Of a stretch of 64,000 nt of DNA, positions 10,705-32,986 are shown in pieces (position 1 is the stretch's first letter; every line of letters starts with the position of its first letter). A program made the translations under genes and the position numbers. Below the pieces are notes generated by a model that did no database searches, was not told the DNA's origin, and was given only the letters and a program-made list of their open reading frames with translations. The DNA is from an uncultured Clostridium sp. Its GTDB lineage: Bacteria; Bacillota; Clostridia; TANB77; CAG-508. Location of the stretch: positions 4,492-68,491 of the forward strand of contig CAMEJH010000002.1 in the NCBI GenBank assembly GCA_945919455.1, given 5' to 3'.

Positions 10705-10707
10705 TGT

Positions 10708-14037: not shown

Positions 14038-15324
14038 TTATTCTGTTACTAAACTAATTATCCAATAAATCCATGATTTTATTGTTGATGCTCTTCTATA
14101 ATATGTAATATCACTGGTAATATTATATAATTTACATTCTCTCATATAATTTACAATTTCATCATCAGAAGGCATTTCTGATTTTTCAAAATATTTTTTT
14201 ATTGTCATATGAAAAACTTTATGTGATAATATTAATTTTACAAATTCTATTTGCCTTGATTTATAATTTAATTTTAATATTTGTTTTCCTAAATTAGTGA
14301 TTTCGAATTTTTTTATTTTAGTTCCTGACTTTTTAATTAATCCTAAATATATAGCTGCATCTGTATAATAATTAGTTTGCCTAGATACAAATTCATAATT
14401 ATTCGTTATTTCTTGTTTTTCTTTTTCAGAGTTTTGAAGCATTTCGCATAAGTTTATAACTCTTTCGAAATTGTTTGCTTGTGGAAATGAAACTGTTGGT
14501 TCTTGATCAAAATTTTTTATATTGTCTATTAAATTTTGTATTGTTCCTAAATCAATATTTGTATCTTCAATACTATATTTTTTACATTTAACTAATTCGA
14601 TAGAACTATATTCATTCTCTTTATTAAATTTATATTCAAATATTGTAAATATTCCATTAGAATATACTATATATATTGGTCGCACTAATTTTGTAACTTT
14701 TGACTTCCATAATCTATATGGATAATATAATTGTCTTACTAAAAAATCTTCTGCTACTACATTTTTAGCTTCAATTAAAGCTAAACTATTAGTTCCCTCA
14801 TATCCACCATCTATTTCTATTCTTGAATTTTCAACATTAATACTCATTTTTTTATTACTATTTATTTGGGCTATTTCAAAATTAAACACTCCCGAACCCA
14901 TCTTTCCACTTACTGTTGGTACTAATTCCTCTTCTCCCAAAAAGTCCTCAAGTATTTTTGTAATATATGCACAATTTAATGCCAAAGTTTCACTAGTTAT
15001 ATTATTATAATCTAAACTTTCTATATATGGAAGAAACTCAACTTTTTGTACTTCTTTTGGCATTCTTTCAAATTTTTTATAAGCATCAAATTTTGCTACC
15101 ATATAACTATTACTTGATATTGGTAAAATTGATAACTCATTCTTTTTTAATATTTCAGGAATACTTTCACTATTATCAAATTTAGTCATTAGTCTAGCTT
15201 CTCTAAATTCATTTATTTCTTTAGAAGAGATTTTAAAATATCCTTTATTTTTAATTTCTTCTAAAATGTTATATTTTTCAAAGATTTTTTCCCATGCTTC
15301 TTTATTAGTTGAACATCTAGACAT
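14038..15324 (-). CDS. putative Type II restriction endonuclease (PD-(D/E)xK), cognate to the adjacent Dam-family methyltransferase
   Basis: IEIDGGYEG...LALIEAKN fits a PD-(D/E)xK core. 8-nt start/stop overlap with the upstream MTase gene. Confidence 0.5.
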   Translation of the reverse strand: MSRCSTNKEAWEKIFEKYNILEEIKNKGYFKISSKEINEFREARLMTKFDNSESIPEILKKNELSILPISSNSYMVAKFDAYKKFERMPKEVQKVEFLPYIESLDYNNITSETLALNCAYITKILEDFLGEEELVPTVSGKMGSGVFNFEIAQINSNKKMSINVENSRIEIDGGYEGTNSLALIEAKNVVAEDFLVRQLYYPYRLWKSKVTKLVRPIYIVYSNGIFTIFEYKFNKENEYSSIELVKCKKYSIEDTNIDLGTIQNLIDNIKNFDQEPTVSFPQANNFERVINLCEMLQNSEKEKQEITNNYEFVSRQTNYYTDAAIYLGLIKKSGTKIKKFEITNLGKQILKLNYKSRQIEFVKLILSHKVFHMTIKKYFEKSEMPSDDEIVNYMRECKLYNITSDITYYRRASTIKSWIYWIISLVTE

Positions 15325-16174
15325 TATTTTTTACTAACACCTCTCTTACTTCACCTCTTGAATTACCATTACTGTTTATTGCTCTTTTGGCTTTAACTGA
15401 AATAATTTTATATTTTTCTGTATTTGCATATAATTTTCTAATAAACTCGCAATCAGAATTTGAAAGTAAAATATGAACACCTTTATCAGTCAATCTATCA
15501 CACAAACTTTTTAATCTTATCTGTTCTTCTTCTCCAAATCCGCTTTCATTATACCCAGTAAAATTTGAAGTTTTAGAAATTGGAGCATAAGGAGGATCAA
15601 AATAAACAACAGCTCCCTTTTTTATTCCTTTAACAGCACTTTCAAAATCTCCACTTAAAAAAGTTATATCAACATCATTAAAATATTTACTTACAGCTCT
15701 CAAACCAGCTTCGTTAATTATATTTGGGTTTTTATATCTACCAAAAGGCGAATTGAATTCGCCTACACTATTTACTCTATATAATCCATTATAACAAGTT
15801 TTATTAAGGTACAATATTCTTGCAGCTTTTTGAACTCCAGTTAAATTATTATATTTTTGTGGTATTCTGTCCAATTCTCTGATATTGTAAAAATTTTCTG
15901 ATGTATTCGAATATTTTTCTTTCTTTAGCTCAGATATTAAATCCTCTACATTATCTTTTATAACTTTATAAACATCTATTAGCTCATGATTAACATCATT
16001 TATTATAGCTTTTTGTGGTTGAATATCAAATAATACTGCCCCTCCTCCAACAAAAGGTTCATAATACATAGTATTTTTAGTTATTTTGGGCATATATTTT
16101 TTTATTTCTGGTAGTAATTGCCTTTTTCCCCCTACCCATTTTAAAACAGGCATAACCAATTTATTTTTTTTCAT
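15317..16174 (-). CDS. dam: Dam-family N6-adenine DNA methyltransferase (D12 class)
   Basis: LKWVGGKRQLL, FVGGGAV (AdoMet motif) and DPPY catalytic motif. 285 aa. GAGGAG RBS. Confidence 0.8.
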   Translation of the reverse strand: MKKNKLVMPVLKWVGGKRQLLPEIKKYMPKITKNTMYYEPFVGGGAVLFDIQPQKAIINDVNHELIDVYKVIKDNVEDLISELKKEKYSNTSENFYNIRELDRIPQKYNNLTGVQKAARILYLNKTCYNGLYRVNSVGEFNSPFGRYKNPNIINEAGLRAVSKYFNDVDITFLSGDFESAVKGIKKGAVVYFDPPYAPISKTSNFTGYNESGFGEEEQIRLKSLCDRLTDKGVHILLSNSDCEFIRKLYANTEKYKIISVKAKRAINSNGNSRGEVREVLVKNNV

Positions 16175-18843: not shown

Positions 18844-19233
18844 TTATTTAAATAATTCTATATATCCTAATTTAATAAAATGATTTATTTCTTGATAGCA
18901 TCCTACTTCTTTACTTGGCATTTTATATATATAAATTTTTTGATTAGTTTTATTTTGAATTTTCTTTGCAACTAAATAGCTCATTTCTGCAAAAGCTTCA
19001 TATCCAATATATCCTTCAATTCCGTTTTTATCAAAATTTAGAAGTAATAAATCGTCTGTTTTATTTAAATTTTCATAAAATAATTCATATGCATATTTAT
19101 ATTCCATTTCTATAGTATCATTTATTTTCTTAGGATAATCAATTACTTCATATTCTCTTTTTTCTAATGCTTCTTTTATTTTTTGTACTTCTTTATAAAA
19201 TTTTGCTGAACCAGCAATTACTATTTTTCTCAT
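18844..19233 (-). CDS. hypothetical small Rossmann-like protein, possibly nucleoside 2-deoxyribosyltransferase-like
   Basis: MRKIVIAGSAKFY opening only. Shares the conserved upstream promoter motif with the Nudix genes. Confidence 0.3.
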   Translation of the reverse strand: MRKIVIAGSAKFYKEVQKIKEALEKREYEVIDYPKKINDTIEMEYKYAYELFYENLNKTDDLLLLNFDKNGIEGYIGYEAFAEMSYLVAKKIQNKTNQKIYIYKMPSKEVGCYQEINHFIKLGYIELFK

Positions 19234-19640: not shown

Positions 19641-19943
19641 ATGAAAATTTGTGATATTTTAAATAATAATGAAAGTGAAAATTTATTAAAGGAATGGTTA
19701 GAATTTAGAGAGGAGGAATTATCTCGTATGGATGAAAATGATCAAAAGCATTTAATTAATTTTGATGATTATTCTGAAAAGATTTTAAATAATGTTTCTA
19801 GTGAGAATTACAACTATGTTTCTAAAAAATTAGATTTAATCTATGAGGATTTTATGGAGTATTGTGCTTATTGGAATGATAAGTATTATATGAGTGGATT
19901 TAGTGATGCTATTAAGTTGATTGTTAGTGGGTTGAAATTATAA
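19641..19943 (+). CDS. hypothetical acidic protein (about 100 aa)
   Basis: ATG at 19641 with GGAGG RBS. The longer ORF from 19590 lacks an RBS. Confidence 0.4.
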   Translation: MKICDILNNNESENLLKEWLEFREEELSRMDENDQKHLINFDDYSEKILNNVSSENYNYVSKKLDLIYEDFMEYCAYWNDKYYMSGFSDAIKLIVSGLKL

Positions 19944-20027
19944 TTTAGTATAATAAAAAATGTGAACTTTGACTTTCTTAATCAAATGTCATTTTTCACA
20001 CTTTTATTATAATATTGTATTTAATAA

Positions 20028-20417
20028 TTATCTTCCACCATTAATTAAGACTTTTAAATTATTCCATGTCCAATTGTATATTTTATCCGATGTTTTAGCA
20101 GCTTTTGGTTTTTTACAGATTTCGTTTGCTCTTCCATTTAAAAGAAAATATGGAATCCCCTCTTCTTGTGCTATTGATATTTCTGCAGAAACCCCTGTTG
20201 CCTCATCTGTATATTTACCACATATTACAGCTACAACATCACAGCCTTTTATTCTAGTTCTAGCTTTAGCTTTCCAATCATTGTCAATTGTTTCTTTTAT
20301 CGACATATCAGTTATCTCGAAAGGAGAATCTTCATTTCTCGCTTGTCCTACTAATAATGTTTTTAAATCAGAGTCATTGTCATAATCAAAGCTTATAAAT
20401 GTTCTTTTTTTAGACAT
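20028..20417 (-). CDS. TIR-like (DUF1863/MTH538-type) domain protein
   Basis: KRTFISFDYDNDSD opening typical of DUF1863 TIR-like proteins. 129 aa. Begins 18 nt after the caspase-like gene. Confidence 0.5.
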   Translation of the reverse strand: MSKKRTFISFDYDNDSDLKTLLVGQARNEDSPFEITDMSIKETIDNDWKAKARTRIKGCDVVAVICGKYTDEATGVSAEISIAQEEGIPYFLLNGRANEICKKPKAAKTSDKIYNWTWNNLKVLINGGR

Positions 20418-20435
20418 ATTATATCACCTCCATTT

Positions 20436-21404
20436 CTATATTTGTTTTTTATCTACAAGTCTCCAGTAATGATATCCTAGAGCAGTCAGTTTGCATGACT
20501 TAGAATTCATAGCGGCAAAATACATATGATCTTCATCTACTGGTACTACTAGTCCTACGCTAGCCAACTTTTGAAGTTCTTTAAATATTGCAACATTTTT
20601 TTCATCCGCATATGGTTCAATAACCTTATGTTCTATATCAATAGCATTAGTGTACTCGAATGATGGGTCTAACTTGAACTCTTCTTGTGGAGTTTTAAAA
20701 TATTTTGTTAGATTTCTAATAATACTAATTGGTACTTGTGGTTCTATTTCTCTAATTGAATTAAATTCTTTAACATTTGTTTTAAATATTGGTCTTTGAT
20801 CCCATTCTCCTAATGCTTGGTCAATATATGCATATATACTACTTGGCGTTATCTTTCCATTAATATTAGCAGCACCGCCTTTTAAACCTTCCAATAATAA
20901 ATTTGTAAATACACCATGTCCATTTATTTCTTTTGATGTTTCATAATCAAGGCTAGATGTAAGAATAGAAACTCCTTCAGATATTGTACATTCATATCCT
21001 GATTCTATACTTGGTTTGCCAATTGCTCCCGAATAACAACAATCAAGTATAATTATTTTGTTTCTAATTTTGGATGAATTTGCTATTTTCAGTATATCAT
21101 CCATTGAAATTCCCCAATCATTTTCTGTAAAATCTGGTGTAACTATATAGCCACCTAGTTCATTTATGTATCCGTGTCCAGAGAAATAAAATAGTGCTGT
21201 ATCAGTAGTTCCTTCAAATAGTTTTTTTATTAAACCTAATAACTCACCTTTTTTTTGAACATTTAATGCTGTTTTTACGTCAAAATTAGGAGAACCATCT
21301 CCATTAGTATCTATAATAGATGCCAATGCTGTTGCATCATTTATACAACAATTTAATTGGTTGTTTGGATAGTTATTTATCCCTACAATTAGTGCTTTAC
21401 TCAT
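20436..21404 (-). CDS. caspase-like peptidase (C14/metacaspase family) with a C-terminal ~130-aa domain of unknown function
   Basis: ALIVGINNY...CCINDA, catalytic His in FYFSGHG and catalytic Cys in IIILDCCYSG, as in metacaspases. Confidence 0.75.
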   Translation of the reverse strand: MSKALIVGINNYPNNQLNCCINDATALASIIDTNGDGSPNFDVKTALNVQKKGELLGLIKKLFEGTTDTALFYFSGHGYINELGGYIVTPDFTENDWGISMDDILKIANSSKIRNKIIILDCCYSGAIGKPSIESGYECTISEGVSILTSSLDYETSKEINGHGVFTNLLLEGLKGGAANINGKITPSSIYAYIDQALGEWDQRPIFKTNVKEFNSIREIEPQVPISIIRNLTKYFKTPQEEFKLDPSFEYTNAIDIEHKVIEPYADEKNVAIFKELQKLASVGLVVPVDEDHMYFAAMNSKSCKLTALGYHYWRLVDKKQI

Positions 21405-21514
21405 TTATCATACCTCCTCTTACTATAAATGAACGATTATCTCTCGATATCCTCATTTTTCTTTGTTTTTTATTTTTATTATTTTTATAATAATAATCTA
21501 GTATTTGTTTTTAT

Positions 21515-22084
21515 TTAATATTCTTTTAACTCACCACCACTTAGCCAATCCTTTAATGAAGTATATTTATTATTTACCTGTCCATCATTTACCCAAAAAT
21601 CATATTTACCACTTTTTTTATCTTTTGCATAATCAATATACGGATATATTCCTAAATATTCTAGCCCTTTATACTCATTGCTTCCATTATTTAAAATTGG
21701 TAATATTGCAGCTCTATTCTTTTTTCCATCTGCATATCCTAATTCCCAAGGGCACCACTTTGAATTAACAATATTTCCTGTAGCAATATAAGATAATCCT
21801 AAGCAATTATTTATTCGCTCTCTCAAAATTCTTGCTGTCTCTGATGATACATTTTCCCTGTCTTGCAATGAGCTTTCTTTCCAATCTATATAAACTTCAT
21901 ATCCTGCTTCTTCGAATTTTTCATATAATACTTCCACTAATTCTTTATCCATAAAACTATGCGAAATAAATAAATCATAATTTTTATTAACTATAAATTT
22001 TCTATTTTCTAGCAATAAAGAAAAATTATTAAAATTATTTTTTTTCTTTAATTCATTTTCTAAAAAGCTTTTAGTTAAAATCAT
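21515..22084 (-). CDS. TIR-domain protein (ThsB-like)
   Basis: DLFISHSFMDKELV...GYEVYID...SKWCPWELGYA contains the bacterial TIR motifs, including the conserved Glu in WCxxEL. Confidence 0.7.
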   Translation of the reverse strand: MILTKSFLENELKKKNNFNNFSLLLENRKFIVNKNYDLFISHSFMDKELVEVLYEKFEEAGYEVYIDWKESSLQDRENVSSETARILRERINNCLGLSYIATGNIVNSKWCPWELGYADGKKNRAAILPILNNGSNEYKGLEYLGIYPYIDYAKDKKSGKYDFWVNDGQVNNKYTSLKDWLSGGELKEY

Positions 22085-22185
22085 ATTTTCACCTCCAAAT
22101 TATTCATATATAACTGCTTATTTATTATATCAACTTAAATCTATTTTTTACATACTTAAAATGCGACAAAATAGTTATTTTTTAA

Positions 22186-22566
22186 CTATTTTGTCGCATT
22201 TTGTGTCATTTTATAATTTTCATAAAATTCATCCACATTATTTTTCTTTAAACATTCTCGAAGTGATTCTATAATTCTAACTTTCTCTTCTAGAGTAATA
22301 TTTTTACCTTTTAAAAATTTATCAGATATTTTTATGTATTCTTCTTCTGTTATTCTGTTTATTTCGAACAAATTATCTAAGCTTACTTCATATATATTAG
22401 CTAATTCTATTGCTTCTGTTATACTCATATCTCTTCTATTTGTTTCCCAACTTGAAACCTTTGAACGACTTATATCTAATTTTTCAGCCAACTGTTCTTG
22501 TGTAATTTTTTTACTTTTTCTTAATTCTTTTAATTTTTCTATTATTGCATAGTCCATATATTTCAT
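22186..22566 (-). CDS. XRE-family HTH transcriptional regulator
   Basis: ITQEQLAEKLDISRSKVSSWETNRR, the HTH_3 pattern. Confidence 0.65.
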   Translation of the reverse strand: MKYMDYAIIEKLKELRKSKKITQEQLAEKLDISRSKVSSWETNRRDMSITEAIELANIYEVSLDNLFEINRITEEEYIKISDKFLKGKNITLEEKVRIIESLRECLKKNNVDEFYENYKMTQNATK

Positions 22567-22683: not shown

Positions 22684-23913
22684 TTAATCTTTTTCTTTAA
22701 TCAACCAGTCCAATACATTTATCTTCTTTATTCCGTCAAAATCAGCATCTAAGTCATCATCTAATGTTAATATATATTTAGGATAATTATCGCTTATCTT
22801 CTTTAATGGAGCTAATTCTCTTTCTAATACGCTACTATTACCATCAGCAGATTCCCTTGTAGTTAATGCTACTTGATAATAAATTGTATTTTCTGAATTT
22901 TTTGCTACAAAGTCAACTTCTAAGTCATCATATTTTCCAATATAAACTTCATATCCACGCCTTAATAATTCAAGGTAGACTACATTTTCTAAGATATGTC
23001 CCATGTCTTTACCAGAGCCTTGACCTAACATATAATATCTAAGTCCTATATCTACTGCATAATATTTTTCCTGTGTTTTTAAAAATTCTTTTCCTTTTAT
23101 ATCATATCTATTTGCTTTATACACAATATAACTATCAATAAGTGCTTGAACATATGTTGAAACAGTATTATATGAATTATTTTTTTCAAGACCTTCAATA
23201 TTGTCACTTATGTTTTTCATACTTGTTCTATTTCCTATGTTATCATATAAATATTTAGTTACTCTTTCTAAGGTGTTTTTATCTGTTATTCCTTTTCTTT
23301 GCATTACGTCCTTAAATAAAATTGTATTGTATATTCCATCTAAAAACAAGTTAATATTTTCTGGATTAATTTTAAATAATTCGATTGCTTGTGGAAATGA
23401 ACTATATCGTAAATAATCTCTAAATTTTCTTGATAAATCTGTTTTATCTTCAAAAGCTGATAAATATTCTTTAAATGACAATGGCAACATTTTGATCTCT
23501 ATATATCTTCCTGTAAGTAATGTTGCAAGTTCTGATGATAAAAGCCAAGCATTTGATCCAGTTATATATAAATCAACATCTTTATTAATAAAAAGACTAT
23601 CTACTGTTTTTTCAAATTCACCAACTTTTTGAATTTCATCTAAAAATATATATGTTTTTTTACCTTTTACCAGTTTTGATTTTAAATATTCATATAATTT
23701 TTTTCTATCTTGTAATTCTTCATAATCTGCATCTTCAAAGTTGATTGATATGATTTGATTCTCTTCTACTCCATTTTCTTTCAAATAATCTTGAAATAAC
23801 TCTAATAAAGTAGATTTACCACATCTTCTAATTCCTGTTATTACTTTTATAATTTGTTGATCTTTGAAATTTCTTAATATAGATAAATAATCTTCTCTTT
23901 TTATTCTCTCCAT
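22684..23913 (-). CDS. AAA-family ATPase (AAA_14 + DUF4143 type)
   Basis: Walker A GIRRCGKSTLL, Walker B IFLDEIQ. ATG at 23913 with GGAGGAG RBS. The longer ORF to 23964 lacks an RBS. Confidence 0.7.
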   Translation of the reverse strand: MERIKREDYLSILRNFKDQQIIKVITGIRRCGKSTLLELFQDYLKENGVEENQIISINFEDADYEELQDRKKLYEYLKSKLVKGKKTYIFLDEIQKVGEFEKTVDSLFINKDVDLYITGSNAWLLSSELATLLTGRYIEIKMLPLSFKEYLSAFEDKTDLSRKFRDYLRYSSFPQAIELFKINPENINLFLDGIYNTILFKDVMQRKGITDKNTLERVTKYLYDNIGNRTSMKNISDNIEGLEKNNSYNTVSTYVQALIDSYIVYKANRYDIKGKEFLKTQEKYYAVDIGLRYYMLGQGSGKDMGHILENVVYLELLRRGYEVYIGKYDDLEVDFVAKNSENTIYYQVALTTRESADGNSSVLERELAPLKKISDNYPKYILTLDDDLDADFDGIKKINVLDWLIKEKD

Positions 23914-24086
23914 AAAATCTCCTCCAACTATTTTTATTATACTATTTTTTATTATTATAGTCAAGTTTTTTCAAATTTATGAAAAAACTTTTGAATTTTA
24001 TTAAGTTTTTTCATATCGAGAGTATAATAATATTATTTTTATCTATTAAAAACACTAAAACGACTATCAATAATAGCCGTTTTTTA

Positions 24087-25292: not shown

Positions 25293-25631
25293 TCATTTTT
25301 TGAATAACTGCTTAATTCGTTCAAATAGTCCTTTTTTATTATTTTTTTGTTGATAGCTTTCTAACCATTCAACATTATTATCTGTTATATAATAATGTGA
25401 CCTACATGGTATACTAAAGTTACCTATTGATGGTCTAAGTGTAATTGCTTGTCCATCATATTTCATTACCCATCCATATTTTTTATCGATAGGAGTTACA
25501 GTTCTTTCACCACATCCGCATGCACATCTATGTACAATAACATTACAACTAATGCACACATACAAAATACCATCCTTTAAGTTTGAAGGAATTTTATCAA
25601 CAAACTCAACTTTAAATTTATTAGTTTTCAT
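25293..25631 (-). CDS. Cys-rich (zinc-ribbon-like) small protein, operon partner of the E1-like gene
   Basis: CISCN...HRCACGCGER cysteine cluster. Overlaps the E1-like gene's stop by 11 nt. Confidence 0.4.
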   Translation of the reverse strand: MKTNKFKVEFVDKIPSNLKDGILYVCISCNVIVHRCACGCGERTVTPIDKKYGWVMKYDGQAITLRPSIGNFSIPCRSHYYITDNNVEWLESYQQKNNKKGLFERIKQLFKK

Positions 25632-26781
25632 GTACTATTTCTCCCATCTCAATTGAATAAACATTTTGGCATTGAGTATCATCATTTTCATATATTTTAA
25701 AATATTTTTTCCATTCTATAACTGCTATTGTTGCATTTAAAGCATTACATTCTGCAATTTGAATATTTGTATTATATACATCATTACCATCTTCATCAAA
25801 ATCAAGATATATAGGAATTCTGTCGTAATTAGTTTTGTTAAAGACAGTAGTTCTTACCTGACCATTTATAGTGTCATTTATATTTTGTAGCCCAATTCCT
25901 GTATCTATAAATGGTATTTCTTCTAAGACAAGATAATCTGTAATTAATTTTCTTGCTATTCCTGAATCAATACATATAAATACAAAATCCATATCTTTTA
26001 ATACACTAACATTTTCTTCTTTAATAAACATGTCATGTTCTATTAAATTTTTATGCATATTTTGATAATTTGCTTTAAAATAGCTTACCTTTGACATACT
26101 TTTTGGAAATATTTCTTTACTCGCTGCTCCAGGACTTCTAAAAGCATTATGCTGACAAAATACATCACCATCAATCAAATGTATTTCTTTGACATTAGTT
26201 TTCGAAACTAAATCAAGTATATATGCTCCAGTTCCTCCAAGTCCAATAATTGCTATTTTTTTGTCCAACATTTTTCTATTGCAATTGTCAATTCCTGCTC
26301 TTGATGAATTTGTATCAATATATTGAAATACTGATTCTTCTTCTGTTACCACTTTTTTAAATGTTTTTGCAGTTACTGAATTATCTTTATCTATTGCTCT
26401 AGAAGAAATTATATTAATATAATTTACAAATTTTTCATAATAATCTTTATAATTTTCATCTGGTTTATTTGAAAATGAGCGTTTCACATTTATTCCAGCT
26501 AAAATTGAATTGCTGGCACTATGCTTTATTTGTGTAATTTCTGTTCCATCTGCATTACAAGGTTGATCTCCTGAAAAATATATAACATGGTCTCCATTAT
26601 ACTTAGCCTTATCACCTTCAAAAGCAATGCTTGACACTAATGTACCATAATCTATTTCTCCATTTGCTTTCAAGTATGGGATATGGGAAACAATCCCATA
26701 TCCATTATTTACATCTAATTCATATCCTTCATTTTGAAGTTTTTTCAAATCATCGCTATGATTTATTAGTTCTTGTGACAT
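25621..26781 (-). CDS. E1-like (ThiF/MoeB/UBA-family) adenylyltransferase with an N-terminal ~170-aa extension (possible E2-like domain)
   Basis: Rossmann IAIIGLGGTGAYILDL and LIDGDVFCQHNAFRSPG (the DxDxV...N..R adenylation motif). N-terminal extension has a single Cys in GDQPCNADG. Confidence 0.6.
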   Translation of the reverse strand: MSQELINHSDDLKKLQNEGYELDVNNGYGIVSHIPYLKANGEIDYGTLVSSIAFEGDKAKYNGDHVIYFSGDQPCNADGTEITQIKHSASNSILAGINVKRSFSNKPDENYKDYYEKFVNYINIISSRAIDKDNSVTAKTFKKVVTEEESVFQYIDTNSSRAGIDNCNRKMLDKKIAIIGLGGTGAYILDLVSKTNVKEIHLIDGDVFCQHNAFRSPGAASKEIFPKSMSKVSYFKANYQNMHKNLIEHDMFIKEENVSVLKDMDFVFICIDSGIARKLITDYLVLEEIPFIDTGIGLQNINDTINGQVRTTVFNKTNYDRIPIYLDFDEDGNDVYNTNIQIAECNALNATIAVIEWKKYFKIYENDDTQCQNVYSIEMGEIVHEN

Positions 26782-27019
26782 TTATCCTCATTCCTTTCTT
26801 AACCATAACTACTTGTCCCTTTAATAAAAAACCATTTGGTTTTTCATTATTTCCTTTAAAATAAATTACAGTATAATTTGTAGAATCATTATCTTCATAA
26901 TGTCCAAAAGCTAATCTTATAACTTCCTCATATGAAATTTTTTCTTTTGCTACCTCTTTTTCTTCACCATTTATAAAAATAGTGATTTCATGTTTGTTTT
27001 TTAATTTTTCTTCTATCAT
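26756..27019 (-). CDS. small beta-grasp/ubiquitin-like (multiubiquitin-type) protein
   Basis: 87 aa with an EITIFINGEEKEV...ISYEEVIRLA pattern. Overlaps the E1-like start by 26 nt. No C-terminal Gly-Gly. Confidence 0.35.
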   Translation of the reverse strand: MIEEKLKNKHEITIFINGEEKEVAKEKISYEEVIRLAFGHYEDNDSTNYTVIYFKGNNEKPNGFLLKGQVVMVKKGMRINVTRTNKS

Positions 27020-27090: not shown

Positions 27091-27321
27091 TTATCCTCTA
27101 GGAGGATATGGATCTTTACCATAAGTATTCTTACTTTGAATTCTTCCATTTAATCCATGTATTATATGTTCAGAATTATTCTGTTTGGCAATTAATCTTC
27201 CAGCATTTTGAGCATCTTGCTTAGTAGCATATGTATTGATTGCCTTTGATGTATTTTCAAATTTGTTTTGCCAACCATTTTTGTTATGAACAGTATGTAC
27301 ATTTTTGTTCATTTTTTTCAC
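27091..27321 (-). CDS. DUF2188-family small protein
   Basis: HVVHNKNGWQNK...DAQNAGRLIAKQN...YGKDPYPP matches the DUF2188 pattern. Confidence 0.5.
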   Translation of the reverse strand: MKKMNKNVHTVHNKNGWQNKFENTSKAINTYATKQDAQNAGRLIAKQNNSEHIIHGLNGRIQSKNTYGKDPYPPRG

Positions 27322-27461: not shown

Positions 27462-28199
27462 TTATTTTATGTCTTCCATAACTAACTGATTCTTAATACT
27501 TTTATCATCATTTGTATCTTTTATTCTTATTTCAGCTGCTTGTTTAGAAACTCCACAAGTTTCAGATATTTCTTTTGCCATTTGTTTTATATCCTTATTA
27601 TTATAATTTTCTGAATAATATTGCTTTATTAATCTTCTAGGCATCAATATTGATGCTCCAAAATAATTTGCTTGCCATTCTAGCCAATCCAAATCTGTTT
27701 TTAATCCACCTGCAATAACTTTATTATCAACTACATCTCTATTTAAACACTTTATGCAATCATTATCTGTTATATCTCCTATAATATCAAATAAATTTAT
27801 TTGATTTTCATCTTCTATAAATTCTTTTCTATGTAAAATCCAATGTCCCAATTCATGTGCTAATGTAAATTGATATCTTCCTTGTAGCTTCAAGTCGTTA
27901 ATCAGTATTTCATTCAAGATAATAGTTCCTTTTTCAAATTTCTTCTTGCAAGGTGTACTATCCTCATTAATCACATCAACATATCCAGTTTTAAATATTG
28001 TCATGCCTAATAAATCACCATTTTCATCTAATTTTTGGTATTCAATTTTTAAATTCAATTTAAATTCTGCAATACTTTCTAAATCAATAATATTTAACTC
28101 TTGCAATGAATTAGGTGAATATTCTTCCAGAAATCTAATAGCTTCATTGTCTATATCACCTTTACATAATATTTTACTTTTTCTTATTTTCATCACCAT
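27462..28199 (-). CDS. ImmA/IrrE-family metallopeptidase (DUF955)
   Basis: HEXXH motif TLAHELGHWILH. Overlaps the upstream XRE gene. Confidence 0.7.
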   Translation of the reverse strand: MVMKIRKSKILCKGDIDNEAIRFLEEYSPNSLQELNIIDLESIAEFKLNLKIEYQKLDENGDLLGMTIFKTGYVDVINEDSTPCKKKFEKGTIILNEILINDLKLQGRYQFTLAHELGHWILHRKEFIEDENQINLFDIIGDITDNDCIKCLNRDVVDNKVIAGGLKTDLDWLEWQANYFGASILMPRRLIKQYYSENYNNKDIKQMAKEISETCGVSKQAAEIRIKDTNDDKSIKNQLVMEDIK

Positions 28200-28512
28200 C
28201 TTTCTTGTTTCTTTTCATATCCCTTAGCAGTGTAATAACTTGTAAATTTTCTTTAACAAATTCTTCTACATCTGCTGGAATTGTATCTTTTGCTTTTCCT
28301 GCTAAATCATATAATTCTCTTTGTTCTTCTTCATCTAATTTTAATATTTCAATAACTTTTTGTAGTTTTTCATATGATAAAGCATTTCTTCTATTGTTTT
28401 CCACATCACTTAAATATGCTGGTGATATGTCAAGTTCTTTTGCTAACATTCTTAAGGACATTTCTTTTTCTTTTCTTTTATTGGTTAAATATTCACCAAA
28501 TGTTATATTCAT
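28174..28512 (-). CDS. XRE-family HTH regulator paired with ImmA/IrrE
   Basis: MSLRMLAKELDISPAYLSDVENNRR. Confidence 0.7.
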   Translation of the reverse strand: MNITFGEYLTNKRKEKEMSLRMLAKELDISPAYLSDVENNRRNALSYEKLQKVIEILKLDEEEQRELYDLAGKAKDTIPADVEEFVKENLQVITLLRDMKRNKKDGDENKKK

Positions 28513-28621: not shown

Positions 28622-31282
28622 CTAATCATACTTATATTCTTCGCTTTCTTCTGCTACTTTTAATATATCACTTTCTATTTCTTCTTGTGTATATTTAATT
28701 TCATTGTCTAAAACATTTTCACTCATTATCGTACTTGATTTATAAATAGTATATTTCATTTTACTCTCTGATGCAATTTCTAACGCTGCATTTTTCTTTG
28801 CACTTACTACAGCATCATCTACTTTATTGTCTCCTTTTACTTCTATTATTTCATAAGTGTCATTTTCAAATTTTGCAATGAAATCAGGATAATACTTTCT
28901 TAAAGAATTCGAATCTGGATCTATGTATTGTATGTAAAAATCGGTTTGCGATGCATTTGTAAACATTCCTGTAAAGTAGATTTCTTTTATTTTTTTATTC
29001 TTAATATATTGCAGAAACAATTCTTTTTCTGGTTTAGAATCAAAGCAATATGTATCAGCATGAAAGCTCTTATTCCTAGCACCTAAAATTTGTAAGTCTT
29101 TATTAGTTATAACCAATTCTGGTTTAGCTTTAAATGTATAATATTCTTCTTCTGGCTGTTTTAATAGAACAACTTCTTTATCTTCTGTTGTAGTATCTTT
29201 TTCAAGCTCATAAGCAAAATCTACTATTTTAGGTATAATCCAATCGTATAAAATTTGATTATATTTACTTACTATTTCAATAACCTTGTTTATATCATTT
29301 TTTAATATTTTTTTTACTTCAGAACATTTCATATCTCCAATATATCTTGCAATTTCACTATATAGCATAATCTCACTATATCGAATATTTTCTTGTGAAG
29401 ATTCTATTTCTTTTACTTTAGCTACTCTTGAATCTGCTAAACTTTCTTTTTTTATAATCTTAGATTTATATTTTTCCAAATCAATTTTTTCTAATTCTAA
29501 GTTAATACAAGTATGTTCATTATATTTTTTAACCAAATTATACTTATGATTTATATTTTTAATTTTTATATATCTTGGTGGTGGAACTACTTTTACTTCA
29601 TATATTCGTTTATCATCATTTTCTCTATTCTTTATATCTTTAACAGACATCTTAAAGTTTTTGTTTAATTCATTATCTAATATTTCATAATTATCCTTTG
29701 ATAAATACACAGATGCTGTTTGTTGAATATTTGTAATTTTTCTTAGGCATCTCATTGTCGCTTGTAAAACAAATATTGAAGAATCTGGACTTCTATATAA
29801 TGCTACTCCAAATAAAGATCGACAATTCCACCCTTCTTTTCCTTTTCCAACCAAGATTATAAATTGCTTATTACTTTTTTCTGTATCTAAATTATTAAAT
29901 TCATTTATATCATTATCTTTAGTTAATTTATTATCTCCTACGTTAATTAATATTTTATCTCTTGGAATATTTAATTCCTCTAATACTTTTTCTAATGTAG
30001 GTACAATTTCTTCTTCAACTTCTTTTATTTCACTACCATATATAGCAAGTTTTGGTAGCATATTTTCATATCTTTTTTCTCCATATGTATACCAAAAATC
30101 TTTTACAACATTTCTTATAAAAGTTTCATTTTTTACATTTTCAAAAGCTTGTGGTTCAGCATCTTTTAAATAACCATTAGCAATTGATTCTCTTAATCCA
30201 TATGAATATATTACTTCTGGAAGAATATTATTTCCAACATAAGGTGTACCTGTATAATTATAGCATGCTACTACTCTGCTTCCTTTTTGATTTAATCTAT
30301 TAGCCAATATATTAATAGTTGTTCTTAGACTACTTTTACTTTTATCATATAAGTCCTTGTCTAATTGTTTTCCAAACAAATGATGAGCTTCATCAACATA
30401 TATTCCAAGCTGACTTAATCTTGTTATCTTTTCAAATCTTTGATTAAATATCAAATCTCCCTCTTCCATATGTTGTTCAACGCCATATAACTCAGAAAAA
30501 ATATCATCTATTTCACTTTTTCTCTCTTTATCACTAAATAGCATTTGAATAGGTGTATCTTCTGTATGTTTTTTTCTTAATATAATTTTTTGATTATTAG
30601 AAATAATCACATTAAAATCAGAATCATCCAATGTATTTAAAGTCGTTCCTGTCTCCTCTAAAAAATGAAATTTGATATTACTATCTAATATTCTTACATA
30701 TTCATTCGGAATTACTTTTGATTTATCAAAAGTTTGTATTTCTTTTAAGGATTGCAATACTGTCTTATCTGGCGAAAACACCAATGCATTGTGACAAAAT
30801 CTTGGATCATCAGGATATTTGTTTGCTAATAGGAATTCATAAAATATACATGTCGCCATAAGAATAGTTTTTCCTAATCCCATTGTCAATGCAAATATAT
30901 AATTTGAATAGGTTTCTTTATATTTTATTAACATTTCATATACTTCTTTATATTCTTTTGTTGAATATTCAAAAATATCTATCTGATTATTTTCACCAAT
31001 TTTTAGCTTACTATCAGAAAAACATCCTTTTTTCTCCATCCAATCTTTAAAAATCTCGCTTACTGATTGATTATTTAAAAATTCCTTAATAAAGACATAC
31101 ATTTCTAAGGCTTCAAATTGTGGTTTTCTAAGGAAAGCATCCGGATTACATTCTTTATCATTATAATCTAAATATTTTTTTGTTAAATCTTTATAACTTT
31201 TTTTTATTACTTTTTTGTTTGTATCATAAAAAAATTTTAATGCTTGAAAAAAAGATGTTTGTAAGTTCATATTATTACTCAT
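28622..31282 (-). CDS. res: Type III restriction enzyme Res subunit (SF2 helicase + C-terminal PD-(D/E)xK)
   Basis: Motif I MGLGKT, motif II VDEAHH. C-terminal YYPDF...YEIIEVKG nuclease core. 8-nt overlap with the upstream Mod gene. Confidence 0.75.
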   Translation of the reverse strand: MSNNMNLQTSFFQALKFFYDTNKKVIKKSYKDLTKKYLDYNDKECNPDAFLRKPQFEALEMYVFIKEFLNNQSVSEIFKDWMEKKGCFSDSKLKIGENNQIDIFEYSTKEYKEVYEMLIKYKETYSNYIFALTMGLGKTILMATCIFYEFLLANKYPDDPRFCHNALVFSPDKTVLQSLKEIQTFDKSKVIPNEYVRILDSNIKFHFLEETGTTLNTLDDSDFNVIISNNQKIILRKKHTEDTPIQMLFSDKERKSEIDDIFSELYGVEQHMEEGDLIFNQRFEKITRLSQLGIYVDEAHHLFGKQLDKDLYDKSKSSLRTTINILANRLNQKGSRVVACYNYTGTPYVGNNILPEVIYSYGLRESIANGYLKDAEPQAFENVKNETFIRNVVKDFWYTYGEKRYENMLPKLAIYGSEIKEVEEEIVPTLEKVLEELNIPRDKILINVGDNKLTKDNDINEFNNLDTEKSNKQFIILVGKGKEGWNCRSLFGVALYRSPDSSIFVLQATMRCLRKITNIQQTASVYLSKDNYEILDNELNKNFKMSVKDIKNRENDDKRIYEVKVVPPPRYIKIKNINHKYNLVKKYNEHTCINLELEKIDLEKYKSKIIKKESLADSRVAKVKEIESSQENIRYSEIMLYSEIARYIGDMKCSEVKKILKNDINKVIEIVSKYNQILYDWIIPKIVDFAYELEKDTTTEDKEVVLLKQPEEEYYTFKAKPELVITNKDLQILGARNKSFHADTYCFDSKPEKELFLQYIKNKKIKEIYFTGMFTNASQTDFYIQYIDPDSNSLRKYYPDFIAKFENDTYEIIEVKGDNKVDDAVVSAKKNAALEIASESKMKYTIYKSSTIMSENVLDNEIKYTQEEIESDILKVAEESEEYKYD

Positions 31283-32975
31283 TTATTTTAATCTCCCTTT
31301 CATATGTTTCAGATAACAAATCTGTAATTTTTATTTTTATATTAGTTGCATTATCAGGTATTTCATATTCACCATTTACTAAATCATTTTTTTCAGCAAT
31401 ATCAATCATCTTTGGCTCCATAACTGCACCATCATAATTCCAGTCAATCATTATTGATTCTACCATTTGCTTCCAATCTTCAACATATTCTTTTTGCAAG
31501 CTTAACTTTTGTAATAAATTCATTGGATAGAACTCTTTTATTTTCAATTTATTGTCTTCTATTTCTATAACAGCCTCCGAATCACGCTTGAATTGTAAAT
31601 TTGCTTTGTCTTTCAGTATGTCCAATATTTCTATATCTATATTATAGTTACTCAAATCCTGCTCAAGTGTTGGTTTTATATCTGGTTCATGACCCATACA
31701 TACAATTGTTATTTTTTCAACTGGTTCAAAAGGATTTTCAGCTTTTCTTTTTTCAAACTTTTGATATGGAAGATTGGCTTTTAGTTCTTCTAAATCTGAT
31801 TTAGTAGCAATTCTATTTACAGGCATGATTTTTATCATTCTACCATCTAATTCTCCATCATAAACACTATTTCCATCAAATTTCTGTATTCCTAATGCGT
31901 CAATTAATAAATCTTTTGCTTCTATAGGATTTCTAAAGAAATCATAATTATTTACATTATATACTTCAAATCCTGTATATTTATCATTTTCTAATTCTTT
32001 AGCTATATTTATTAATCTTTTTGTTGTAGTTTGTATAGCACCTAAATTTATATCTGCCCCTATAAACTTTCTTCCTAATTTCATTGCAACCGCTTGAGTT
32101 GTACCACTTCCCATAAAACAGTCAAATACAATATCCCCTGGATTTGAAGATGCACTTATTATTCTTTCTATTAATGCTTCAGGTTTTTGCGTTGGATATT
32201 GTAATCTTTCAATTGCCTGTGAATTAATATATGGAATATCCCAAACATCTCTCATACTTGACCATCTATATACACCATCTTCATCTTCAAAAAATTCTGT
32301 ATCAGCTGCTCCATAATTTACAATTCCAGCTTTTCTACCTTTTGCCTTTGTATATGATTTTTCTTTTTGCTCATTAAACACTCTATTTTCACTTTTAGTA
32401 TATAGAAAAATATTATCATGCTGCTTATTAAATTCATTTTTACCTCCAGCAGCAGTTTTATAAGACCAAATAATTTCATTTACAAAATTACTTGTTCCAA
32501 AAACTTCATCACATAACATTCTCAAATGATGTGCTTTATGCCAATCACAGTGTATATAAAAACTCCCTTTGTCAGATAATAACTCTTTTAATAAAATTAA
32601 TCTTTCATACATAAATTGTAAATACTCATCATTTGTCCATATATCACCATATTGTTTTTCTTCAAATGAATTATTATCATTACATATCTTTCTCCCTTTT
32701 AAACTAATTGTTTTTTTGTAATCTGCCTTAGAATCAAAAGGCGGATCAATATATATTAAATCTATTTTTCCCCTATATTCTCTTAACATATGGCTCATTA
32801 CTTGAAGATTATCTCCCCAAAATATCTTATTAATCCAATCATCCTTCATTTCACCATATTTTTCTTTTAATTGTGCAGGATAATAATCTGTACCTCTATA
32901 TGGTCTTTTTCCTGTCCAATGTAATTCTGGATATCCCTTTATTGTATTTATTCTATCAAATTCAAAATCACTCAT
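31275..32975 (-). CDS. mod: Type III restriction-modification Mod subunit (N6-adenine/N4-cytosine DNA methyltransferase)
   Basis: DPPF motif (IYIDPPFDS) and AdoMet-binding FDCFMGSGTT. Confidence 0.8.
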   Translation of the reverse strand: MSDFEFDRINTIKGYPELHWTGKRPYRGTDYYPAQLKEKYGEMKDDWINKIFWGDNLQVMSHMLREYRGKIDLIYIDPPFDSKADYKKTISLKGRKICNDNNSFEEKQYGDIWTNDEYLQFMYERLILLKELLSDKGSFYIHCDWHKAHHLRMLCDEVFGTSNFVNEIIWSYKTAAGGKNEFNKQHDNIFLYTKSENRVFNEQKEKSYTKAKGRKAGIVNYGAADTEFFEDEDGVYRWSSMRDVWDIPYINSQAIERLQYPTQKPEALIERIISASSNPGDIVFDCFMGSGTTQAVAMKLGRKFIGADINLGAIQTTTKRLINIAKELENDKYTGFEVYNVNNYDFFRNPIEAKDLLIDALGIQKFDGNSVYDGELDGRMIKIMPVNRIATKSDLEELKANLPYQKFEKRKAENPFEPVEKITIVCMGHEPDIKPTLEQDLSNYNIDIEILDILKDKANLQFKRDSEAVIEIEDNKLKIKEFYPMNLLQKLSLQKEYVEDWKQMVESIMIDWNYDGAVMEPKMIDIAEKNDLVNGEYEIPDNATNIKIKITDLLSETYEREIKINE

Positions 32976-32986
32976 TATTTGCCCCC

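What the first reader, a model, noticed from the sequence alone, without database searches (positions are those of the whole stretch)
20028..22566. TIR, caspase-like protease and TIR-like (DUF1863) three-gene cluster: candidate Thoeris-like signalling defence module
Three consecutive minus-strand genes have intergenic gaps of 110 and 18 nt and a same-strand XRE regulator immediately upstream. The first is a TIR-domain protein with the WCxxEL catalytic-Glu motif. The second is a C14 caspase/metacaspase-like peptidase with an extra ~130-aa C-terminal domain. The third is a DUF1863 TIR-like protein. Bacterial TIR proteins (ThsB) make NAD-derived signals that activate an effector; in canonical Thoeris this is a SIR2/SLOG or Macro ThsA. 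Here the only candidate effector is a caspase-like protease whose C-terminal domain could act as the signal sensor, and a second TIR-like gene is also present. This architecture is not among the classical Thoeris types and resembles recently reported TIR-to-caspase-like immunity. The DUF1863 third gene is an unexplained addition.
Basis: partly seen in the sequence, partly recalled or inferred. Interest (0 to 1): 0.8.

Follow-up and report, generated by a model that had tools for sequence, protein, structure and literature searches.

The report
Type IV Thoeris with two TIRs
This three-gene cluster is a clear member of type IV Thoeris, a published anti-phage system in which a TIR enzyme makes a small signal that activates a caspase-like protease; the only open question is what its second TIR gene does.

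Summary
Three minus-strand genes at 20028-22084 encode a 189-aa TIR_2 protein, a 322-aa C14 caspase-like protein and a 129-aa ThsB_TIR (DUF1863) protein, with an XRE gene upstream.

This is type IV Thoeris (Rousset et al., Science 2025). In that system a TIR makes N7-cADPR, which activates the caspase-like effector ThsE, an arginine-specific protease.
- The caspase is 45% identical over its full length, C-terminal domain included, to the caspase next to a 100%-identical copy of the validated E. coli TIR.
- The supposedly unexplained DUF1863 gene is the homologue of the characterised PsTIR (35% identity, catalytic E79 aligned).
- The 189-aa TIR_2 gene is therefore the extra one.
- TIR-caspase-TIR loci are already listed in that paper's Table S1 ("Additional TIR"). 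One of them, Algoriphagus faecimaris, has the same gene order as the window.
- The XRE is not conserved with the system.

One point remains of interest. The 189-aa TIR family occurs with four different effector contexts and is almost always paired with a second TIR whose class tracks the effector. It may be a partner-dependent accessory sensor. That is inferred, not shown.

Verdict: a new member of a known kind; modest interest.

The parts
21515..22084 (-). thsB (accessory): 189-aa TIR_2 protein, first gene of the operon. Catalytic-type Glu is E114 (KWCPWELG).
   Evidence: Pfam TIR_2 E 4e-11. PADLOC ThsB E 1.7e-45. E 1.6e-35 to PDB 8BTN_B, 'TIR domain-containing protein'. F39, S108, W110, P112, E114 and G116 are invariant in 19 family members. 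This class occurs in 20 of 81 ThsE loci, and in 19 of those 20 another TIR is also present.
20436..21404 (-). thsE: 322-aa caspase-like effector. Caspase/paracaspase fold to about residue 200-220 with the H77/C123 dyad, followed by a conserved C-terminal alpha/beta domain that is the proposed signal sensor.
   Evidence: Peptidase_C14 E 1.6e-15. 45% identity over 322 aa, E 1e-94, to the caspase beside a 100%-identical EcTIR in E. coli 165. 6858 homologues, about 65% identical across phyla. AF2 mean pLDDT 89.3. Foldseek top hits are MALT1 paracaspase, metacaspases and caspases. No solved ThsE structure exists in the PDB copy.
20028..20417 (-). thsB (core, PsTIR-like): 129-aa minimal TIR, catalytic Glu E79. 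Predicted N7-cADPR synthase.
   Evidence: Pfam ThsB_TIR E 3.3e-08. 35% identity, E 3e-21, full length, to PsTIR translated from Table S2 of Rousset et al.. E79 aligns with PsTIR E79, whose E79Q mutation abolishes defence. This class or the EcTIR class accompanies ThsE in most of the 81 loci.
22124..22132 (-). Promoter-like extended -10 (TGaTATAAT), about 40 nt upstream of the first TIR start codon. A GGAGG ribosome-binding site lies at 22092-22096.
   Evidence: Read directly from the sequence. This is a consensus match only and is not evidence of function.
22157..22203 (.). Perfect 20-bp-stem hairpin that overlaps the XRE stop codon, flanked by an A-tract and a U-tract. Candidate bidirectional terminator (or operator) separating the XRE gene from the Thoeris operon.
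   Evidence: Terminator scan. RNA fold -29.5 kcal/mol for the 131-nt region, z = -5.6 against shuffles.
19951..20011 (.). Hairpin followed by a T6 run in the 84-nt gap between the short TIR gene and a convergent 100-aa ORF. Candidate terminator that ends the operon.
   Evidence: RNA fold -18.4 kcal/mol, z = -4.3; sequence.
22186..22566 (-). XRE-family HTH gene (126 aa) upstream on the same strand. A neighbour whose membership of the system is doubtful.
   Evidence: HTH_3 E 5e-15. Present in all near-identical metagenome copies. Absent from the next-closest trios L088 and L090, which carry AAA_21/RloB genes instead. A homologue was found in only 1 of 81 ThsE loci.

Best explanation
The locus is a type IV Thoeris anti-phage operon (thsB-thsE-thsB) inside a defence island.

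Proposed mechanism, inferred from the characterised homologues:
1. Phage infection activates the short 129-aa TIR, which is PsTIR-like.
2. That TIR uses E79 to cyclise NAD+ into N7-cADPR.
3. The signal binds the conserved C-terminal domain of ThsE, probably across a dimer.
4. This switches on the H77/C123 caspase-like protease.
5. The protease cleaves many cellular proteins after arginine, and the infected cell stops supporting phage growth (abortive infection).

The 189-aa TIR_2 protein is an accessory second ThsB that widens what the system can sense. My favoured reading is that it depends on a partner. It would detect a phage cue and act through the short TIR, as ThsB1 does for ThsB2 in staphylococcal Thoeris, rather than activating ThsE on its own.

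Shown here: homology, catalytic residues, operon structure, co-occurrence and island context. Inferred: every biochemical step and the role of the accessory TIR.
For: Identity of the system:
- ThsE is 45% identical over its full length (E 1e-94) to the caspase adjacent to a 100%-identical EcTIR.
- The first nine residues of PsCaspase that are visible in Table S2 (MRKALVVGI) equal the family consensus.
- The homologue P0076 appears to come from a Parcubacteria genome listed in Table S1 (its name is cut in the output), and loci L010 and L073 come from genomes listed there.
- The short TIR is 35% identical to PsTIR, with E79 aligned.
- Published experiments give the E79Q and C129A loss of defence, arginine specificity, and the finding that only TIR-derived N7-cADPR activates the protease while 3'cADPR, 2'cADPR, cADPR and ADPR do not.
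- 77 of 81 ThsE loci have an adjacent TIR gene.
- The surrounding genes are other defence candidates.

Accessory role of the 189-aa TIR:
- In 81 ThsE loci, 45 carry a single TIR, and in all but one of those it is a short TIR. The 189-aa class appears in 20 loci, and in 19 of them another TIR is present.
- In 80 metagenome loci found with the 189-aa family, 25 have ThsE. All 24 of those that can be evaluated also have a short TIR.
- 35 of 38 loci with enough flanking sequence have a second, different TIR nearby.
- The family occurs with ThsE, with SIR2-STALD ThsA, with SLATT proteins and with a small membrane protein. The class of the partner TIR tracks the effector: PsTIR-like or EcTIR-like in 42 of 44 ThsE contexts.
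- Precedent exists for a cooperating TIR pair in which one catalytic site is dispensable (Roberts et al. 2025).
Against: - No experiment was done on this locus.
- Identity to the validated proteins is moderate (35% for the TIR, 45% for the caspase), and the product of a TIR cannot be read from its sequence.
- The caspase compared here comes from E. coli 165, not strain 328. Its identity to the cloned EcCaspase is inferred from the identical neighbouring TIR gene.
- Against partner dependence: the catalytic Glu and neighbouring residues of the 189-aa TIR are invariant across the family, which fits an active enzyme. Two-gene systems work without it. In Bacillus dafuensis each of two ThsB proteins works alone and their ranges add.
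- 79% of 189-aa family members have a nearest relative in the same effector context, so subfamilies may be specialised for one signal.
- The surveyed loci are the best-scoring 80 of more than 500 hits and include near-duplicates, so the counts are not independent.
Confidence: 0.8

Rival explanations
1. The system is the same (type IV Thoeris), but the two TIRs are independent, parallel sensors. Each recognises a different phage cue and each makes N7-cADPR itself, so the defence ranges add.
For: There is direct precedent in type I Thoeris. B. dafuensis TIR1 and TIR2 each work alone with ThsA, and their ranges are additive. Both TIRs here keep the catalytic Glu, E114 and E79. Divergent ThsB genes in one locus are common.
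Against: If the 189-aa class could activate ThsE alone, loci with it as the sole TIR should exist. I found at most 1 in 20 among genomes and 0 of 24 evaluable in metagenomes, whereas short TIRs are the sole TIR in 44 loci. The same TIR family would also have to make different signals for ThsE, ThsA and SLATT effectors.
Confidence: 0.35
2. The 189-aa TIR makes or consumes a different nucleotide, for example 3'cADPR, or simply hydrolyses NAD+. It would then serve another effector elsewhere in the island, tune NAD+ or signal levels, or be an orphan remnant of another Thoeris type.
For: Its family is found beside SIR2-STALD ThsA and SLATT effectors. Yirmiya et al. report one TIR cluster shared between type I, type IV and DUF2270 configurations. 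PsCaspase does not respond to 3'cADPR, 2'cADPR, cADPR or ADPR.
Against: No SIR2, SLOG, Macro, SLATT or DUF2270 gene was found among the neighbours scanned between 7.9 and 38.6 kb. The gene is the first cistron of a tight operon with ThsE and recurs in that position in unrelated phyla (L010, L022, L046). That argues for a role in this system.
Confidence: 0.1
3. The cluster is not a defence system. The caspase-like protein would be a housekeeping or developmental protease with a specific substrate, and the TIR genes would be unrelated neighbours.
For: Bacterial C14 peptidases have varied roles, and nothing was tested experimentally here.
Against: There is full-length homology to a validated defence effector. 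TIR adjacency is near-universal across phyla. The locus sits in a defence island. Flanks vary around a conserved cassette in metagenome copies.
Confidence: 0.03

Closest known systems
Type IV Thoeris (ThsB + ThsE; Rousset et al., bioRxiv 10.1101/2024.10.24.620036, Science 2025), validated from Pseudomonas sp. 1-7 and E. coli 328
   Same: The caspase-like effector has the same length, the same catalytic dyad and the same C-terminal domain (45% identity to the E. coli-type protein). A PsTIR-like short TIR has the catalytic Glu at the same position. The genes form a tight operon in a defence island. The TIR-caspase-TIR layout is already catalogued in Table S1 of that paper.
   Different: The two validated systems are two-gene operons. 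This locus adds a 189-aa TIR_2 gene upstream, and the function of such additional TIRs in type IV has not been reported in the papers I read. The host is a low-GC (about 26%) organism that is probably a member of the Clostridia.
Staphylococcal type I Thoeris ThsA-ThsB1-ThsB2 (Roberts et al., Nat Microbiol 2025, PMC12578639)
   Same: Two different TIR proteins share one operon with one effector. It offers a model in which one TIR senses the phage and recruits or activates the other, which makes the signal.
   Different: The effector is the SIR2-SLOG NADase and the signal is 3'cADPR. ThsB1 there is a larger protein with an N-terminal domain. No homology between ThsB1 and the 189-aa TIR was tested, and cooperation here is only inferred from co-occurrence.
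Bacillus dafuensis type I Thoeris with TIR1 and TIR2 (Ofir et al., bioRxiv 10.1101/2021.01.06.425286)
   Same: The locus has several divergent ThsB genes feeding one effector, and TIRs act as the specificity determinants.
   Different: Each TIR there works on its own, and the effector and signal are different.
PDB 8BTN chain B, 'TIR domain-containing protein' (211 aa)
   Same: It is the closest solved relative of the 189-aa TIR (E 1.6e-35 over residues 27-182), and the PWELGY catalytic motif is conserved.
   Different: I could not establish its source organism or its Thoeris type. Its accession number is next to 8BTO (the BcThsA filament), which hints at a type I study, but this is unverified.
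Arginine/lysine-specific clan CD peptidases: MALT1 paracaspase and metacaspases
   Same: They are the best structural matches to the N-terminal domain (Foldseek E 1e-12 to 1e-9). They share the His/Cys dyad and basic P1 specificity, which matches what was measured for PsCaspase.
   Different: They have no nucleotide-sensing C-terminal domain, their sequence identity is 14-18%, and they are regulated differently (Ig-like domains, calcium, autoprocessing).

Membership tests
Type IV Thoeris | [quoted passage not shown] | tested here: met
   45% identity, 322 of 322 residues aligned, E 1e-94, to the caspase next to a 100%-identical EcTIR. The visible N-terminus of PsCaspase equals the family consensus. 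Caveat: the full cloned caspase sequences are truncated in the stored supplement.
Type IV Thoeris | Intact caspase catalytic dyad (the Cys is essential: PsCaspase C129A) | tested here: met
   H77 (SGHG) and C123 (DCCYSG) are present. C123 is invariant and H77 nearly invariant in 116 homologues. C123 aligns with the catalytic Cys motif of yeast metacaspase.
Type IV Thoeris | Adjacent TIR-domain gene with a catalytic Glu (PsTIR E79 is essential) | tested here: met
   The 129-aa protein is 35% identical to PsTIR, with E79 aligned to E79. A second TIR with E114 is also present.
Type IV Thoeris | Published detection rule: the caspase-like profile plus a TIR_2 (PF13676) or ThsB (PF08937) hit, with at most one gene between them | tested here: met
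   TIR_2 at 43.9 bits and ThsB_TIR at 34.3 bits flank the caspase directly; the rule is quoted. The authors' caspase HMM was not available. It was replaced by homology to proteins from genomes in their Table S1 (L010, L073, P0076).
Type IV Thoeris | The TIR produces N7-cADPR on infection, the signal activates the protease, the protease cleaves after Arg, and the system gives abortive-infection defence | not testable with these tools
   These features are biochemical and phenotypic. They are known only for the Pseudomonas and E. coli systems.
Type I Thoeris | SIR2-SLOG (STALD) ThsA effector next to the ThsB genes | tested here: not met
   No SIR2 or SLOG/STALD domain was found in the neighbours scanned with Pfam between about 7.9 and 38.6 kb. 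Relatives of the 189-aa TIR do sit next to SIR2-STALD genes in other loci.
Cooperative two-TIR Thoeris (ThsB1/ThsB2 type) | Two TIR proteins form a complex with a phage protein, and only one catalytic site is required | not testable with these tools
   Only indirect support exists. The 189-aa class is almost never the sole TIR, and the class of its partner tracks the effector.
Gasdermin or CRISPR-linked caspase-like systems | A gasdermin substrate gene, or a type III CRISPR/SAVED-CHAT partner, adjacent to the protease | tested here: not met
   The adjacent genes are two TIRs, an XRE gene and a small ORF with no family match. No such domains were found.

The most novel reading that the evidence does not exclude
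The 189-aa TIR_2 family may be an effector-agnostic accessory TIR that works only through a partner TIR. It would sense a phage cue and switch on a co-encoded short TIR, and the class of that short TIR (not of the 189-aa protein) would determine the signal and therefore the effector. If so, the ThsB1/ThsB2 logic described for one staphylococcal type I system would extend across type IV (N7-cADPR/ThsE), type I, SLATT-type and an undescribed TIR / small-membrane-protein / TIR Thoeris-like architecture.
Probability: 0.35. Interest if true: 0.55.

Novelty: new member of a known kind. Interest (0 to 1): 0.27.

Why it matters
As it stands, this adds one more type IV Thoeris locus, from a low-GC organism whose exact protein recurs on many metagenome contigs. 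That is useful for annotation but not surprising.

The useful residue is the two-TIR question. Additional TIR genes are common in type IV loci (about 38% of the 81 loci surveyed) and are listed in the original catalogue. I found no functional study of them in the papers I read. If the 189-aa class is a partner-dependent sensor shared between Thoeris types, it would explain why one TIR cluster appears with effectors that respond to chemically different signals. It would also give a simple genetic test of how minimal 125-aa TIRs are coupled to phage recognition.

Tried and rejected
- A sequence search of the PDB with ThsE, as a single sequence and as a profile, found only distant metacaspases and paracaspases. 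No ThsE structure is available for comparison.
- The first AF2 run used 21 sequences and left the C-terminal domain unmodelled (pLDDT below 50). A 116-sequence alignment fixed this. The fold search cannot be restricted to one domain, so hits were dominated by the caspase fold and the fold class of the C-terminal domain remains unassigned.
- The EcTIR comparison with the 189-aa TIR gave only weak local matches, so the 189-aa protein is not EcTIR-like.
- I tried to establish what PDB 8BTN is. No held paper mentions it, and the likely source paper is not held.
- The cluster look-up gave no source names, so the organism was not identified beyond an uncultured Clostridia MAG as the nearest GTDB hit.
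- NCBIfam has no specific model for any of the three proteins.
- I considered the XRE gene as a CapH-like regulator of the operon (PADLOC capH E 6e-10). I rejected it as a conserved component because related trios lack it.
- I considered a link between the nearby E1/ThiF genes and the TIRs, like the Cap2/Cap3-associated Thoeris operons. I rejected it because three unrelated genes lie between them and the E1 belongs to its own Bub-like operon.
Full report
**1. What is in the sequence**

ORF listing confirms four consecutive minus-strand genes:
- an XRE-family gene (22186-22566, 126 aa);
- a TIR gene (21515-22084, 189 aa);
- a caspase-like gene (20436-21404, 322 aa);
- a short TIR-like gene (20028-20417, 129 aa).

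The gaps are 101, 110 and 18 nt. Pfam assigns HTH_3 (E 5e-15), TIR_2 (E 4e-11), Peptidase_C14 (E 1.6e-15, residues 2-179) and ThsB_TIR/PF08937, the former DUF1863 (E 3.3e-08). PADLOC's ThsB models hit the 189-aa protein at E 1.7e-45 and the 129-aa protein weakly (E 1e-4). Its generic 'caspase' model hits the middle gene.

**2. Operon anatomy**

A perfect 20-bp-stem hairpin lies at 22157-22203. It overlaps the XRE stop codon and is flanked by an A-tract and a U-tract. The region folds at -29.5 kcal/mol, z = -5.6 against shuffles.

Downstream of the hairpin are an extended -10-like TGaTATAAT (22132-22124) and a GGAGG ribosome-binding site seven bases before the first TIR start codon. After the third gene, the 84-nt gap to a convergent 100-aa ORF holds a hairpin followed by T6 (z = -4.3).

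The three genes therefore look like one transcription unit, and the XRE gene looks like a separate one. The promoter and terminator calls are consensus matches only.

**3. Identification as type IV Thoeris**

[quoted passage not shown] That paper reports the following.
- A two-gene TIR + caspase-like operon from Pseudomonas sp. 1-7 and E. coli 328 defends against phage T6.
- Defence requires TIR E79 and caspase C129.
- The TIR makes N7-cADPR. Neither 3'cADPR, 2'cADPR, cADPR nor ADPR activates the protease.
- The protease cuts promiscuously after arginine.
- A later survey renames the effector ThsE.

Table S2 of the paper gives the complete PsTIR and EcTIR coding sequences.
- The window's 129-aa protein aligns with PsTIR over the full length: 35% identity, E 3e-21, with E79 opposite E79.
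- The EcTIR DNA occurs at 100% identity in 14 complete E. coli genomes. In E. coli 165 the next gene is annotated 'caspase family protein'.
- The window caspase aligns with that protein over all 322 residues: 45% identity, E 1e-94, C-terminal domain included.
- The nine PsCaspase residues visible in Table S2 (MRKALVVGI) equal the consensus of the window protein's family.

The family is large, with 6858 hits. It is unusually uniform: 322 aa and about 65% identity across Bacillota, Bacteroidota, Patescibacteria, Proteobacteria and archaea.

Several of these homologues come from genomes listed as type IV Thoeris in Table S1. They are Algoriphagus faecimaris DSM 23095 (L010), Clostridiales bacterium PH28_bin88 (L073) and, probably, a Parcubacteria GW2011_GWE2_39 genome (P0076; its name is cut in the output).

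Every membership feature that sequence can address is met. The biochemical features cannot be tested here.

**4. Structure of ThsE**

With a 116-sequence alignment, AlphaFold2 gives mean pLDDT 89.3 and pTM 0.81.
- Residues 1 to about 210 form a caspase-type alpha/beta fold. The best matches are MALT1 paracaspase, metacaspases and caspases (Foldseek E 1e-12 to 1e-9). MALT1 and metacaspases prefer basic P1 residues, in line with the arginine specificity measured for PsCaspase.
- Residues from about 225 to 322 form a confidently modelled small alpha/beta domain (helices 268-282, 294-299 and 308-318; strands 286-288 and 303-306).
- This domain has many invariant residues, including W201, Q203, P205, E250, T252, N253, C304, Y313 and W314.

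Its fold class could not be assigned because the search cannot be restricted to one domain. No ThsE structure is in the PDB copy.

**5. How unusual is the three-gene layout?**

I fetched 80 loci from GTDB species representatives that encode a ThsE homologue. I added the E. coli locus and classified neighbouring ORFs with profiles seeded on the window TIRs, PsTIR and EcTIR.
- 77 of 81 loci have at least one TIR gene within 2.5 kb on the same strand.
- 45 have one TIR, and in all but one of those it is a short TIR.
- About 31 have two or more TIR ORFs.
- 20 carry a TIR of the 189-aa class.

The window's exact order (189-class TIR, ThsE, PsTIR-like TIR) recurs in L010, L022 and L046. Table S1 of Rousset et al. 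has an 'Additional TIR' column, and many rows give gene numbers n-1, n and n+1 for the two TIRs and the caspase. The layout is therefore already catalogued.

**6. The accessory TIR**

The 189-aa protein has a close solved relative, PDB 8BTN chain B (E 1.6e-35). I could not determine where that protein comes from. Across 19 family members F39, D46, S108, W110, P112, E114 and G116 are invariant, so the catalytic-type site is intact.

Beside ThsE, this class is almost never the only TIR.
- In genomes, 19 of 20 loci have another TIR as well. The exception is a 370-aa fusion protein.
- A metagenome scan seeded with the 189-aa family returned 80 loci. Of these, 25 contain ThsE, and all 24 that can be evaluated also contain a PsTIR-like or EcTIR-like short TIR.

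The other loci place the family in three further contexts:
- next to a small predicted membrane protein of 140-153 aa with no Pfam match (32 loci);
- next to SIR2-STALD ThsA (five loci scanned and confirmed);
- next to SLATT proteins (two loci).

In 35 of 38 loci with at least 1.5 kb of flank on both sides, a second, different TIR lies within 2.5 kb. The class of that partner follows the effector. It is PsTIR-like or EcTIR-like in 42 of 44 ThsE contexts, and of other ThsB_TIR classes with the membrane protein, ThsA and SLATT.

Yirmiya et al. also note one TIR cluster that is split between type I, type IV and DUF2270 configurations.

Two published models for loci with several ThsB genes apply.
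- Independent additive sensors: B. dafuensis TIR1 and TIR2.
- A cooperating pair: ThsB1 binds the capsid protein and recruits ThsB2, and only the ThsB2 catalytic site is needed.

The asymmetry I see is that short TIRs are often alone while the 189-aa class is nearly never alone. Together with the partner-effector correlation, this favours a partner-dependent accessory role. It does not prove it.
- The invariant Glu fits an active enzyme.
- Subfamilies tend to stay in one context: 67 of 85 nearest neighbours share the effector context.
- My samples are the top-scoring hits and include near-duplicates.

**7. The XRE gene and the surroundings**

The exact ThsE protein is encoded on at least 22 metagenome contigs. 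All share one block: a 252-aa gene, an AAA_14/DUF4143 ATPase, the XRE gene, TIR, ThsE, TIR and a convergent 100-aa ORF. Beyond that block the flanks differ.

In the next-closest relatives (L088 and L090, whose 189-class TIRs are 67-77% identical), the same site holds an AAA_21 ATPase. In L090 this is followed by an RloB-like gene, and in L088 by a 195-aa gene with no family match. Neither locus has AAA_14 or an XRE gene. A homologue of the XRE protein was found in only 1 of 81 ThsE loci.

The XRE gene is therefore not a conserved part of type IV Thoeris. It may travel with the AAA_14/DUF4143 gene, which matches PADLOC candidate PDC-S01 at E 1.7e-153.

The wider region, about 14-38.6 kb, is a defence island. 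It holds:
- a Dam-type methyltransferase with a DUF6996/6997/7226 protein;
- the Thoeris operon;
- PDC-S01;
- a Bub-like ubiquitin-like / E1 / DUF6527 operon preceded by an HTH + M78 peptidase pair;
- a helicase/TnsA-like protein, an N6_N4 methyltransferase and a UvrD-PD-(D/E)XK protein;
- a KAP NTPase.

**8. Verdict**

The finding is real and is a defence system, but it belongs to a published family and its three-gene layout is already in that family's catalogue. It is a new member of a known kind.

The one question worth an experiment is what the additional 189-aa TIR does. Single-TIR constructs and Glu-to-Gln mutants would settle it.

Noticed in passing
window 25293-27019 (minus strand), with 27091-27321 and 27462-28512: A Bub-like bacterial ubiquitination-type operon. 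It has an 87-aa gene (its counterpart on contig L083 carries a precomputed Multi_ubiq, PF14452, hit), a DUF6791-ThiF E1-like protein (386 aa) and a DUF6527/BubE protein (112 aa). It is preceded by a 76-aa gene (counterpart on L083 listed as DUF2188) and an HTH + Peptidase_M78 pair that resembles CapH/CapP regulators. Yirmiya et al. list DUF2188 as a putative Thoeris-associated effector.
   Followed up: partly
window 22684-23964 (minus strand): An AAA_14 + DUF4143 ATPase that matches the PADLOC candidate single-gene system PDC-S01 at E 1.7e-153. It sits directly upstream of the XRE gene. In related islands an AAA_21 ATPase, with an RloB-like gene in L090, occupies this position instead.
   Followed up: partly
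window 28622-35869 (minus strand): Three large co-oriented genes: an 886-aa ResIII helicase with a C-terminal TnsA-like endonuclease domain, a 566-aa N6_N4 DNA methyltransferase, and a 960-aa UvrD helicase fused to a PD-(D/E)XK/Cas4-like nuclease. This is probably a restriction-modification-like or other defence module. A KAP-family NTPase follows at 36837-38591.
   Followed up: no
window 14038-16174 (minus strand): A D12-class (Dam-type) adenine methyltransferase next to a 428-aa protein made of DUF6996, DUF6997 and DUF7226. This is probably a type II restriction-modification pair.
   Followed up: no
window 7899-13251 (minus strand): An 847-aa protein whose only hit is a sigma-70 region 4 HTH, followed by 637-aa and 302-aa proteins with no Pfam match. 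Their function is unknown; they may be another island cargo module.
   Followed up: no
window 19641-19943 (plus strand): A 100-aa ORF convergent with the Thoeris operon. It has no Pfam, PADLOC or NCBIfam match. An ORF of similar size and orientation lies next to the trio in all six near-identical metagenome contigs and in the more distant L088 and L090. It may simply be part of the island's backbone.
   Followed up: partly
loci L102-L122, L128, L145, L148, L150, L152 and others (metagenome): A recurrent architecture: a 189-class TIR, a small 140-153-aa predicted membrane protein with no Pfam family, and a second ThsB_TIR protein. The membrane-protein profile hit 32 of 80 loci. It looks like a Thoeris-type system with a minimal membrane effector. 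I could not match it to a named type.
   Followed up: partly
L061 4515-5570 (uncultured Clostridia MAG; closest GTDB relative): The ThsE gene matches the window protein at 95% identity but only from residue 134 onward. The N-terminal part is replaced, giving a 351-aa chimeric ORF that abuts an AAA_21 ATPase gene. No 189-class TIR is present. This looks like a rearranged or decayed copy.
   Followed up: partly
L001 (E. coli strain 165, NZ_CP020509.1, 3886579-3887956): The E. coli type IV Thoeris (EcTIR + caspase) sits inside a lambdoid prophage, between the lysis cassette and the antiterminator Q gene, a typical moron position. It is present in only 14 of 5426 complete E. coli genomes.
   Followed up: partly
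window 18844-19233 (minus strand): A 129-aa protein with no family match. Its N-terminus (MRKIVIAGSAKFY...) is reminiscent of nucleoside 2-deoxyribosyltransferase-like Rossmannoid proteins; this comes from memory and was not tested. It is flanked by PRiA4_ORF3, ASCH and two NUDIX genes.
   Followed up: no
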